Shown here: positions 48,001-51,000 of the stretch, one piece after another
How the letters are laid out: the number at the start of each line of letters is the position of its first letter
Numbering within the stretch: the first letter of the stretch is position 1
Assembly: GCA_043819555.1 (NCBI GenBank)
Contig: JBDREQ010000066.1
Span: forward strand, 72,695-136,694
DNA: 64,000 nucleotides
Direction: 5' to 3'
From: Candidatus Zixiibacteriota bacterium
GTDB taxonomy: Bacteria > Zixibacteria > MSB-5A5 > GN15 > JAAZOE01
Program-made: the position numbers

Positions 48001-51000
48001 TGAATGAATTTTCGGAAACGACCCGAATAGTTTTTTTCTTAATATCAATCTGTCCGCCAAAGGGATCAATTATCGAATCATCGGCCAGACTACGGGCCAT
48101 GGCGTTAATGGAAAAATCGCGGCGCATTAAATCTTTTTCAATCGGCAAATCGGGATCAAAATCGATATCGAAATCGGTATGCGCCGGGCCGGTCGATATT
48201 TCGGCGCGGGGGAGCGAGAGATCATAAGTGATGGGAACGGTTGATTTTTCAGATTTCTTATGGGGAGTAAATTTAATTACTCCAAAAGAACGGCCCACCA
48301 GATCGACCCGGCCATGCTTAAGCAATAATTTCCGAAGACGTTCAAACGGTATTCCGGATACAAGATAATCGCGATCCTTCATCCCTATCGTTCGATTCAT
48401 TAAGGAATCGCGGACGCATCCGCCAACTTCGTAAATCTGTCCTTCCCGTAAGATTTCCTGCACTATGTTATCCTTCAAATGCAAATTCCTAATCGGGAAC
48501 TATGCGAGTCCCATGCTTTCCGCCCAGCGCATCAATTGCCTTTTCGAATGAGGTAATTATAACTTCCTTACCTCCGTTAATCAAAAAATCAATAGCCGCT
48601 TCCATTTTAGGTCCCATTGATCCAGACGGGAAATGTCCCTCGCTGATATATTTTTTCGCCTCGGTAACAGAAATGTTATCGAGCCATTTTTGATTTTCCT
48701 GTCCGAAATTAATGGCGACCTTATCAACCGATGTCAGGATAATCAAGATTTCCGCGCCGATTTCACGACCCAGAACGGCTGAGGCGAGGTCTTTATCAAT
48801 CACCGCGTCAACGCCTTCCAATCCCAGCACGGGATCGATATATACCGGTATTCCTCCGCCGCCTGCAGCCAGAACAATTACATGATTGTCAAGAAGCAGT
48901 TTAATGATATCTTTTTCGACACAGGATAGCGGTTTCGGCGAAGCGACAACTCTCCTCCATCCGCGATCGGCATCTTTTTTGACTTGCCACCCGCTTTCAA
49001 AAGCGAGTTGTTTCGCTTTTTCTTCGGTATAAAATTGGCCAACATACTTGGATGGATTTTTTATCGAAGGGTCGGTGTGAGCGACGATCATCTGAGTAAT
49101 GACGGTGCAAACCTTCCGATCCAATCCTTCTTTAGCCAGGCGATTCTGAAGTGATTGCTCAATCATGTACCCCATGCCGCCTTCGGTGTCGGCAACACAT
49201 ATCCCCAGCGGCAGAATGGGCGCCTTCCCGCGACCAAGCTCTACCCTGAGTATGGCATTACCCACCTGAGGACCATTGCCGTGAGTGATACAAAGATCAT
49301 ACCCACGGCTTATCAGATTTATTATCGGAGCCAGTGACAGGCGGGTATTACCAAACTGGTTGGATATCGTGTCTTCAATATCCCGGCGCGTTATGGCATT
49401 TCCGCCCAGCGCGACTATCGCCCGTTTATTATGCGACTCTCTTTGGCTCATTGGTTTCTATTTTTTCTTTCTCGTTTTCTTGGCGAAGGCATTACCCAGA
49501 ACATCGGCCAAATCAGGATGGCCAATTTCCTGAAGATTATACATGACTCGCACCGTCGGATGTTTAATCTTCAGCACCCGACGAAGATCAATCGGCGTCC
49601 CGATAACAACCAAATCGCATTTGGTCGCGTTGATGGTTTTTTCCAGATCCTTGATCTGCTGTCCCGAATAACCCATCGCCGGAAGAAGAACACCAATATC
49701 AGGATACTTCTCGAAAGTTTCCAACATTTTTCCAGTCGCAAAGGGCCGTGGGTCTACCAATTCGGCTGCTCCATATTTTTCGGCAGCGACAACACCGGCG
49801 CCATAAGTCATCTCACCATGCGTCAGAGTCGGGCCGTCTTCTACGACGAGAACCTTTTTGCCAAGGATCCGGCTGCCATTCTCAACATCCAGCGGTGAGG
49901 CGGCATCAATGATTATTGCATTGGGGTTAACGGTTCTAACATTGGAGCGGACCTCTTCGACGCCTTCCGGGGACGCGGAATCAATTTTATTGATAACAAT
50001 AACATCGGCGAGATGAACATTGGAAAGACCGGGATAATAAGTCATTTCATGGCCCGGACGATGCGGATCGACGACGGTGATATAAACATCGGCTTTGTAA
50101 AATGACATATCGTTATTGCCGCCGTCCCAGACAATCACGTCGGCTTCTTTTTCAGCTTCGCGCAGAATCATTTCATAATCAACACCGGCGTAAACGATTA
50201 CACCGCGGTCGATATGAGGCTCGTATTCTTCCCGTTCCTCGATCGTGCATTTATGCTTATCAAGATCAGAATATTTGGCGAATCTCTGACAAGCCTGTTT
50301 GGCCAGATCGCCGTACGGCATAGGGTGACGAATGGCGACTACTTTTTTACCCATATCCTGCAAAACCTGGCAAACACGCCGGGTTGTCTGAGATTTACCG
50401 CATCCGGTACGGGCGGCGCAAACCGCTACAACCGGTTTTTTGCTCTTTACCATAGTGGGTTCACCGCCGGCCAGCGAGAATGCCCCTCCCATGGCTATAA
50501 CCCGAGAAGCTTTTGCCATTACACCTTCAAATGGAATATCGCTATAAGAAAAAACAACCTCATCTGCCTTGTACTTCACAATTAGCTTCGGAAGATCGGC
50601 TTCATCATATATCGGAATACCTTTCGGATAGAGTTTCCCGGCCAAAGATTTTGGGTATTTACGCCCATCTATATCGGGAATTTGCGTCGCCGTAAAAGCG
50701 ACAACTTCATAGTCTTTATTGTCGCGATATAAACAATTGAAGTTATGAAAATCCCTGCCTGCGGCCCCCATTATGATAATTTTCCTTCGTGACATTTTTT
50801 ATTTCTCCATTTTCGTTTTCAATTTCGGTTTAATCAAATTACGCATAAATTTCGTTTCCGCAGGTTTTATATTGCCGAAGCGTGCCAGACAGTTTCGATT
50901 AGAAATCTTTTCCAGCCGGTGCGAAATAGTCGTTTATTTTTTCGGTTCATGTTCACAATCTAAATCAAGTTTACTGGTTATCTATTTGAGCCCTCTGAAT

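What a model noticed while it worked through the whole genome (the two positions that open the first line are those of the whole stretch)
48489..50795. No carbamoyl-phosphate synthetase: ArcE arginine synthetase pathway supplies pyrimidine and hydrogenase carbamoyl phosph [...]
The genome has the full pyrimidine pathway from PyrB onward and HypF, but no carbamoyl-phosphate synthetase and no argininosuccinate synthase. It encodes arginine synthetase ArcE (63% identical to the Thermococcus enzyme) next to carbamate kinase, and OTC elsewhere. As shown so far only in Thermococcus, arginine breakdown is the likely source of carbamoyl phosphate, and ArcE is a core gene of this bacterial phylum.
Evidence so far: No CarA (PF00988, call 88), no CarB (PF02787, call 92), no ArgG; the controls ring 14 of 14 each time. 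CarA is missing in all 6 genomes of this family searched and found in 42 of 101 phylum genomes (37 with strong scores); ArcE is found in 97 of 101 at 61-92% identity. pyrR-pyrB-pyrC at C76:46897-49701, hypF at C23, OTC g00341. PMC13260591 and PMC11032458 (passages) show the pathway in T. kodakarensis and do not list Zixibacteria in the passages seen.
(Added by a program. Inside this text positions count along the whole contig: contig position 72,695 is position 1 of the stretch shown here. "Call 12" and the like, gene names such as g00115 and contig names such as C1 are that model's own, and its searches are not shown. The text may have been shortened before it was handed on; [...] marks where a part breaks off. 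The agent that wrote the report below was given it as the finding of a first reader that could run no searches.)

Follow-up and report, generated by a model that had tools for sequence, protein, structure and literature searches.

The report
Arginine breakdown replaces carbamoyl-phosphate synthetase
This uncultured bacterium, like most of its relatives, lacks the usual enzyme for carbamoyl phosphate, the starting material for pyrimidines and hydrogenase, and most likely gets it by breaking down arginine with an ATP-yielding enzyme so far tested only in an archaeon.

Summary
Confirmed as gene content; mechanism inferred. Window 49458-50795 is ArcE (62% identical over 443/445 aa to Thermococcus orthologues; T. 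kodakarensis itself not fetched), 6 nt upstream of carbamate kinase. The 97%-complete genome has OTC, PyrB/C/K/D/F, a below-cut-off PyrE, HypF and a NiFe hydrogenase, but no CarA, CarB, ArgG, arginase or agmatine deiminase.

Among 151 phylum genomes: PyrB 150, carbamate kinase 148, OTC 147, ArcE 145, CPS 46, ArgG 2. Of 105 without CPS, 101 have ArcE. In two others arcE is deleted from its conserved locus and an arginine deiminase is present elsewhere, which favours arginine to citrulline to carbamoyl phosphate over carbamate kinase running backwards.

The route is shown genetically only in Thermococcus; an ADI-fed version has bacterial precedent; this scan noted ArcE in CPS-less bacteria before on other DNA. 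New member of a known kind.

Extra lead, not in this genome: four relatives carry an ornithine-synthesis cassette (argBDCJ) without CPS or ArgGH, candidates for making arginine by running the pathway backwards (about 20%).

The parts
49458..50795 (-). arcE, arginine synthetase (ATP-forming arginine deiminase), 445 aa, P-loop GCGKSQT at residues 131-137
   Evidence: 62.1-62.8% identity over 443/445 aa to Thermococcus orthologues of TK2200; only a partial E 4e-9 hit to cDPG synthetase 9sxb; found in 145 of 151 phylum genomes
48489..49451 (-). arcC, carbamate kinase, 320 aa
   Evidence: TIGR00746 364.6 bits, cut-off 358.25; closest solved structure 1e19, E 1.3e-93; next to arcE in 24 of 25 arcE loci examined
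50971..52467 (-). Aldehyde dehydrogenase, 498 aa; inferred glutamate-5-semialdehyde dehydrogenase for ornithine disposal (substrate not determined)
   Evidence: PF00171; best NCBIfam hits below cut-offs (GucD 561.6/770, PRK03137 407.9/648); directly upstream of arcE in 21 of 25 loci
47123..48484 (-). CCA-adding tRNA nucleotidyltransferase, 4 nt after arcC
44966..47092 (-). sucC-sucD, succinyl-CoA synthetase
   Evidence: over cut-offs TIGR01016 and TIGR01019
42051..44955 (-). korD-korA-korB-korC, 2-oxoacid (probably 2-oxoglutarate):ferredoxin oxidoreductase
   Evidence: korA over the NF006412 cut-off; korB and korC just below theirs; korD named from position and Cys motifs, not family-scanned
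39470..42048 (-). ndk, LarA-family racemase, malate dehydrogenase: end of a tightly packed run (gaps of -1 to 30 nt from arcE to mdh)
   Evidence: order conserved in family genomes

Best explanation
The cell takes arginine from outside (inferred). ArcE converts arginine + ADP + Pi to citrulline + NH3 + ATP. OTC, on contig C7, phosphorolyses citrulline to ornithine + carbamoyl phosphate (CP). CP goes to PyrB for pyrimidines and to HypF for the hydrogenase cyanide ligands; the surplus goes to carbamate kinase for a second ATP. Ornithine is probably removed by ornithine aminotransferase and the adjacent aldehyde dehydrogenase to glutamate, then 2-oxoglutarate, KorABCD and SucCD in the same gene run. 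Shown here: gene content, family identities, synteny, distribution. Shown elsewhere: the ArcE reaction and the CP role, in T. kodakarensis only. Inferred: activity, direction and flux in Zixibacteria, and the substrate of the aldehyde dehydrogenase.
For: Gene set as in T. kodakarensis. There, arcE and arcB deletions need uracil, arcC deletion does not, and arcB deletion blocks hydrogenase-dependent growth (PMC13260591). CPS in 0 of 10 family genomes and 46 of 151 phylum genomes, strong CarA and CarB agreeing genome for genome, while PyrB is in 150 of 151. Five one-contig genomes lack CarB (G099, G034, G045, G084, G088). Of 105 CPS-less genomes 101 have ArcE and 97 have ArcE, OTC and PyrB together. 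In G051, G035, G071 and G135 the aldehyde dehydrogenase gene abuts arcC and ArcE is not found genome-wide; 3 of these 4 carry a full-length arginine deiminase with intact motifs, and G051 and G035 also lack CPS. A hydrolytic enzyme standing in for ArcE points to the arginine-to-citrulline direction. No other CP-yielding route found in G000: no agmatine deiminase, only two transcarbamylases. RocD passes its cut-off. ArgG in 2 and ArgC in 7 of 151, so most of the phylum cannot make arginine the canonical way.
Against: No biochemical or expression data. Carbamate kinase is in 148 of 151, and its closest solved structure is the one a review labels anabolic CK. OTC is not linked to arcE-arcC. HypF is commoner with CPS (38 of 46) than without (61 of 105; kin are not independent), hinting that CPS is favoured where CP demand is higher. 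The three deiminases score below NCBIfam cut-offs (249-263 of 414 bits). G135 and G131 have none of ArcE, ADI or CPS detected (91% and 88% complete). G000 has a 292-aa DDAH-like protein with a near-intact catalytic motif set that could also give citrulline. Four relatives have an ornithine-synthesis cassette that a purely catabolic pathway does not need. PyrE is below cut-off. Arginine transport and pyrimidine salvage were not surveyed.
Confidence: 0.72

Rival explanations
1. Carbamate kinase runs backwards and makes CP from ammonia, bicarbonate and ATP; ArcE serves only energy conservation or makes arginine from citrulline.
For: CK in 148 of 151 genomes, including both CPS-less ADI genomes. 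Closest structure 1e19, labelled anabolic CK in PMC6022934 (passages). P. furiosus CK complements E. coli lacking CPS at 20-50 mM ammonium bicarbonate (as cited in PMC13260591). Four genomes with argBDCJ but no CPS or ArgGH.
Against: In T. kodakarensis an intact CK does not rescue arcE or arcB deletions and its loss has little effect. CK is kept in 45 of the 46 genomes with CPS too. Genomes that lose arcE mostly gain a deiminase. G000 has no ArgB, ArgC or ArgJ, so it has no ornithine source for a reversed pathway.
Confidence: 0.15
2. CP comes from citrulline through OTC, but the citrulline comes mainly from outside or from the 292-aa DDAH/ADI-like protein, not from ArcE.
For: C21:619-1494 matches DDAH structures over its length (E 5e-16) and keeps PRD, FH and GGPTCMT motifs. 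Medium citrulline bypasses ArcE in T. kodakarensis.
Against: It is patchy: short PF02274 matches in 34 of 151 genomes at E<=1e-8, and not found in 5 of 9 other family genomes, which also lack CPS. It is below every NCBIfam cut-off and unlinked to any arginine gene.
Confidence: 0.08
3. carAB is present but missed by assembly or binning.
For: 79 contigs, 97.13% complete; carAB is a stand-alone two-gene cassette with changing neighbours in 20 of 20 loci, so its absence leaves no scar.
Against: 0 of 10 family genomes, one a single contig; whole families lack it (f4 0/15, f16 0/8); CarA and CarB agree; controls 14 of 14. PyrB, OTC and CK are recovered at 97-99% in the same genomes.
Confidence: 0.04

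Closest known systems
Arginine synthetase pathway of Thermococcus kodakarensis (ArcE TK2200, ArcB TK0871, ArcC TK2158; PMC11032458, PMC13260591)
   Same: ArcE orthologue at 62%; OTC and CK present; no CPS, ArgG or canonical ADI; PyrB pathway, HypF and NiFe hydrogenase present; ornithine aminotransferase present.
   Different: A bacterium. arcE and arcC are adjacent inside a run with an aldehyde dehydrogenase, sucCD and korABCD. ProC is not found here, so ornithine probably goes to glutamate, not proline. Nothing is tested experimentally.
Arginine deiminase pathway feeding pyrimidines in bacteria (Eggerthella lenta, PMC10234575 passages; catabolic transcarbamylases in PMC6022934 passages)
   Same: Arginine carbon reaches orotate and pyrimidines through CP from catabolic OTC.
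   Different: The first step there is hydrolytic ArcA, which gives no ATP. Whether E. lenta lacks CPS was not seen in the passages. Two Zixibacteria genomes (G035, G051) have this ADI arrangement.
Carbamate kinase-like CPS of Pyrococcus (anabolic CK, PDB 1e19)
   Same: Closest solved structure of the window's CK; CPS-less host.
   Different: The anabolic role was not supported by T. kodakarensis genetics; direction cannot be read from sequence.
Cyclic 2,3-diphosphoglycerate synthetase (PDB 9sxb; NCBI's name for several close relatives)
   Same: Distant P-loop relative.
   Different: Only residues 213-322 match at E 4e-9, against full-length 62% to ArcE; the database names 'cDPG synthase' and 'GTPase' look like misannotation.

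Membership tests
ArcE arginine synthetase | BLASTP E<1e-100 and length >380 aa (criterion of PMC11032458 Fig. S10) | tested here: met
   593 bits, E 0.0, 445 aa against a Thermococcus orthologue whose start matches what TK2200F encodes and whose end matches TK2200R; proxy query, not TK2200 itself
ArcE arginine synthetase | Closer to ArcE than to cDPG synthetase | tested here: met
   62% full length versus a partial E 4e-9 match
ArcE arginine synthetase | Co-occurs with ArcC and complements ArcA | tested here: met
   adjacent to arcC in 24 of 25 loci; 3 of 4 genomes with arcE deleted carry ADI; but 7 genomes hold both ArcE and ADI
ArcE arginine synthetase | Arginine + ADP + Pi to citrulline + NH3 + ATP activity | not testable with these tools
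   needs an assay; the PDB search returned no ArcE structure
Arginine synthetase pathway as CP source | No canonical CPS in the genome | tested here: met
   genome 97.13% complete, 0 of 10 in the family
Arginine synthetase pathway as CP source | OTC present | tested here: met
   TIGR00658 381.1 bits, cut-off 280.85; SLRT, HPCQ, SMG, HCLP motifs (motif patterns recalled)
Arginine synthetase pathway as CP source | CP consumers present (de novo pyrimidine pathway, HypF with NiFe hydrogenase) | tested here: met
   PyrB, PyrD, PyrF, HypF, HypD, HypE over cut-offs; PyrC and PyrK best hits below subfamily cut-offs; PyrE below cut-off
Arginine synthetase pathway as CP source | Loss of arcE or arcB, not arcC, causes pyrimidine auxotrophy | not testable with these tools
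   shown only for T. kodakarensis
Carbamate kinase (ArcC) | TIGR00746 over cut-off | tested here: met
   364.6 against 358.25
Anabolic (CPS-like) carbamate kinase | Net CP synthesis in vivo | not testable with these tools
   no sequence feature separates anabolic from catabolic CK in the passages read
Arginine deiminase ArcA (for the 292-aa protein on C21) | About 400 aa and TIGR01078/NF002381 over cut-off | tested here: not met
   292 aa, 86.7 and 89.3 bits against 489 and 414; closest structures are DDAH

The most novel reading that the evidence does not exclude
In some Zixibacteria the pathway runs backwards as a complete arginine biosynthesis with neither CPS nor ArgGH: ArgJBCD makes ornithine, carbamate kinase makes CP, OTC makes citrulline, and ArcE fixes ammonia to give arginine. 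Candidates are G002 (this family), G042, G130 and G126 (argB cut at the contig edge there and not scanned). All have ArcE, CK and OTC and lack CarA, CarB, ArgG and ArgH. ProB is absent from all four, and ProC or a cyclodeaminase-family gene occurs only in G130, so proline does not explain the cassette in three. The aldehyde dehydrogenase is missing from the arcE locus in 4 of 7 ArgC-positive against 0 of 18 other genomes examined (hand-picked loci). Against: draft genomes of 100-440 contigs; all keep a RocD-like gene; other ornithine uses (polyamines, lipids, siderophores) were not tested; none of the 46 CPS genomes except G120 has ArgC; the window's own genome lacks the cassette. If true it would also give anabolic carbamate kinase a natural case.
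Probability: 0.2. Interest if true: 0.8.

Novelty: new member of a known kind. Interest (0 to 1): 0.5.

Why it matters
CPS is usually taken as the entry to pyrimidine synthesis. Here about 70% of a sampled bacterial phylum (105 of 151 genomes) keeps PyrB without it, and the 2024 enzyme ArcE fills the gap, extending a 2026 archaeal result to Bacteria at phylum scale. It predicts that these uncultured bacteria need arginine or citrulline for nucleotides and hydrogenase as well as for energy, which bears on media and metabolic models, and it corrects the 'GTPase' and 'cDPG synthase' names. The swap of ArcE for ADI in two lineages gives a genomic argument on direction in the old carbamate-kinase-as-CPS debate; the argBDCJ genomes are where the opposite direction can be tested.

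Tried and rejected
TK2200 itself could not be fetched: the forward-primer pattern found 0 matches; orthologues from 5 Thermococcus/Thermococci MAG loci were used. RNA runs: no RNA holder listed. Rfam on 6 loci: no match at gathering score, so no PyrR attenuator or riboswitch was seen. Promoter and terminator scan near chance (33 vs 25.6 +/- 4.7; 20 vs 17.6 +/- 4.9). Looked for a deletion scar of carAB in the pyr operon: none possible, since carAB stands alone in 20 of 20 loci. Rejected G135's weak CarB match as a cross-hit (E 8e-4, no CarA, 837-aa ORF). Rejected the 9 weak-only CarA genomes as CPS (no CarB; catalytic residues lost). Dropped G118 (LysW lysine cluster) and G120 (canonical arg operon with CPS) from the argBDCJ set, and G029 (argC alone on a 1.6-kb contig, 44-47% to the others). 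Proline as ornithine sink in G000: no ProB, ProC or cyclodeaminase-family hit. Agmatine deiminase and arginase: not found. A CarB tree without outgroup shows two deep types but names no donor. No structure or complex prediction was run.

Full report
OBSERVATION. The second is carbamate kinase (TIGR00746 364.6 bits, cut-off 358.25). The first has only weak cobW and ZigA hits, and close relatives are named 'GTPase' or 'cyclic 2,3-diphosphoglycerate synthase' of Zixibacteria (best 120 of 8000 listed). To test the ArcE call I used the primers published for TK2200. The forward pattern found nothing; the reverse one found 5 Thermococcus/Thermococci MAG loci. The window protein is 62.1-62.8% identical over 443 of 445 aa to 4 of them without gaps, and 56% to the cut fifth. 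One of them begins with the residues that TK2200F encodes. The only PDB match is a partial E 4e-9 hit to cDPG synthetase. So it is ArcE by the published criterion (E<1e-100, >380 aa), tested through orthologues.

THE GENOME. G000 is 3.35 Mb in 79 contigs, 97.13% complete. Not found: CarA, CarB, ArgG, with controls ringing 14 of 14; agmatine deiminase, arginase, ProB, ProC, ArgB, ArgC, ArgJ. tblastn with 4 of 20 relatives' CarA and CarB, and HMMs from all 20, gave only partial GATase and ATP-grasp cross-hits. Found: OTC at C7:50390-51280; pyrR-pyrB-pyrC on C76; pyrK-pyrD-pyrF on C11; a PyrE candidate on C48 below cut-off; HypF, HypD, HypE and a sulfhydrogenase-like NiFe hydrogenase with both CxxC motifs on C23; ornithine aminotransferase on C48. 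OTC and PyrB are the only transcarbamylases.

THE PHYLUM. The same 151 genomes (a sample, G000 included) were searched each time: ArcE 145 (61-92% for full-length matches; some split over contigs), PyrB 150, carbamate kinase 148, OTC 147, HypF 99, CarB 47 with 46 over cut-off, CarA 55 with 46 strong matches in those same 46 genomes, full-length ADI 10 of 44 PF02274-positive genomes, ProC 10, ArgC 7, ArgG 2, ProB 0. CPS is missing from all 10 family genomes and from five one-contig genomes, so assembly gaps do not explain it. Where present, carAB is a stand-alone pair with changing neighbours in 20 of 20 loci fetched (of 46) and falls into two types 39-46% identical, both within one family (unrooted, no donor named). 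CPS looks like the patchy add-on and the arginine route like the core; that order is inference.

DIRECTION. Of 105 CPS-less genomes, 101 have ArcE, 2 have ADI instead and 2 have neither (G131, 88% complete, also lacks arcC; G135, 91%). One search examined 33 loci. In the 25 with arcE, arcC follows in 24 and the aldehyde dehydrogenase precedes in 21. In G051, G035, G071 and G135 the dehydrogenase gene runs straight into arcC, and ArcE is not found genome-wide. Three of these four carry a full-length deiminase with FTRD, MHLD and GGARCMT motifs (below NCBIfam cut-offs), and G051 and G035 lack CPS too. ADI is hydrolytic, so its standing in for ArcE in two lineages suggests that ArcE's job is arginine to citrulline. 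In G088 ornithine aminotransferase follows arcC. The window's run continues through cca, sucCD, korDABC, ndk, larA and mdh with gaps of -1 to 30 nt, a plausible route for the ornithine carbon; the dehydrogenase's substrate is not determined.

AGAINST. Carbamate kinase is as common as ArcE, and its closest structure is 1e19, which a review labels anabolic CK. HypF is commoner with CPS (38 of 46) than without (61 of 105; kin are not independent) and was not found in the same-genus genome, so the hydrogenase part is not general. Seven genomes hold both ArcE and ADI. A 292-aa DDAH-like protein on C21 could give citrulline but is patchy. Transport and salvage were not surveyed. Nothing was assayed.

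MECHANISM. Most likely (0.72): arginine to citrulline with ATP by ArcE, citrulline to ornithine and CP by OTC, CP to PyrB, HypF and carbamate kinase. Rivals: reverse carbamate kinase (0.15), citrulline from another source (0.08), missed carAB (0.04).

LITERATURE. PMC13260591 (main text parts 1-5 of 6; supplements searched by term) shows that arcE and arcB, not arcC, are needed for pyrimidines in T. kodakarensis, and arcB for hydrogenase-dependent growth; its survey covers Thermococcales only. PMC11032458 (parts 1-4 of 6; supplement parts 1 and 3 of 3 and term searches) lists many bacteria with ArcE, not Zixibacteria, and proposes biosynthetic ArcE only where CPS is present. Its tree labels (Figs S10-S11) did not come through as text and may bear on this. 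PMC10234575 (passages) finds one arginine carbon in orotate and pyrimidines of E. lenta, a bacterial precedent through ADI. PMC6022934 (passages) reviews the three CP sources. PMC13763154 and PMC9816063 were seen as listings only. Searches joining Zixibacteria with arginine + carbamoyl + pyrimidine or carbamate kinase gave 0 papers; with arginine deiminase, 1 paper on Chlamydiae; with metabolic + amino acid + auxotroph, 9 listings, none opened. The library lacks most subscription papers. The scan's own notes hold 6 ArcE or CK/OTC findings on other genomes, none on look-alike DNA and none on ArcE with ornithine synthesis.

NEW LEADS. (a) G002, G042, G130 and G126 carry argB-argD-argC-argJ (argB cut and unscanned in G126) with ArcE, CK and OTC but no CarA, CarB, ArgG or ArgH. 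Base composition fits their bins (host bin among the three nearest of 20 references). ArgJ is 76-79% identical across three families. If ornithine is made for arginine, the pathway must run backwards with carbamate kinase as CP source (0.2). (b) Ten proteins in two families are full-length CarA paralogues without a carB neighbour and without the catalytic Cys and HPE motif; none in G000.

VERDICT. Real and well supported as gene content; a known pathway carried to a bacterial phylum, with a useful natural swap and one testable backward-running case. New member of a known kind; interest 0.5.

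Noticed in passing
L068:6222-10558 (G002), L069:755-5040 (G130), L070:460-3953 (G126), L071:444-4792 (G042): argB-argD-argC-argJ cassette in genomes with ArcE, CK and OTC but no CPS, ArgG or ArgH; candidate backward-running arginine synthesis.
   Followed up: partly
L134:8503-9603, L135:8536-9657, L137-L144 (families f9, f14): Ten intact, stand-alone CarA paralogues (356-413 aa) with no carB beside them; catalytic Cys and HPE motif lost in 10 of 10. 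A conserved pseudo-enzyme of unknown role; G066 also has normal carAB.
   Followed up: partly
L111-L114 (G051, G035, G071, G135): arcE deleted between the aldehyde dehydrogenase and arcC; korABCD is also gone from the locus in the three where it could be seen; ADI elsewhere in three.
   Followed up: yes
L100:619-1494 (G000 C21): 292-aa DDAH-like protein with PRD, FH and GGPTCMT motifs; substrate unknown; patchy in the phylum.
   Followed up: partly
L085, L102, L105, L120 (G118, G042, G130, G120): The four arcE loci without the upstream aldehyde dehydrogenase all belong to ArgC-positive genomes (4 of 7 against 0 of 18); presence elsewhere in those genomes not tested.
   Followed up: no
phylum sample: ProB in 0 and ProC in 10 of 151 genomes: most appear unable to make proline by known routes.
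   Followed up: no
L041-L060: Two deep CarB types (39-46% identical) coexist within family f2, so CPS has at least two origins in the phylum.
   Followed up: partly
L072:6794-12494 (G118): LysW-type lysine biosynthesis cluster (homocitrate synthase-like, LysX, LysY, LysZ, LysJ).
   Followed up: no
window 44659-44955: The ferredoxin-like KorD has Tyr where the last Cys of its second cluster motif is expected (motif recalled).
   Followed up: no
window 40423-41649: LarA-family nickel-pincer racemase (best hit malate racemase, below cut-off) between ndk and malate dehydrogenase.
   Followed up: no
window 58351-59310: Two adjacent short ORFs with type IV pilin-like N-termini (recalled motif, not scanned).
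   Followed up: no
G128:C2:1143589-1144915: ArcE match in two overlapping pieces in a genome that has CPS; frameshift or assembly error not examined.
   Followed up: no
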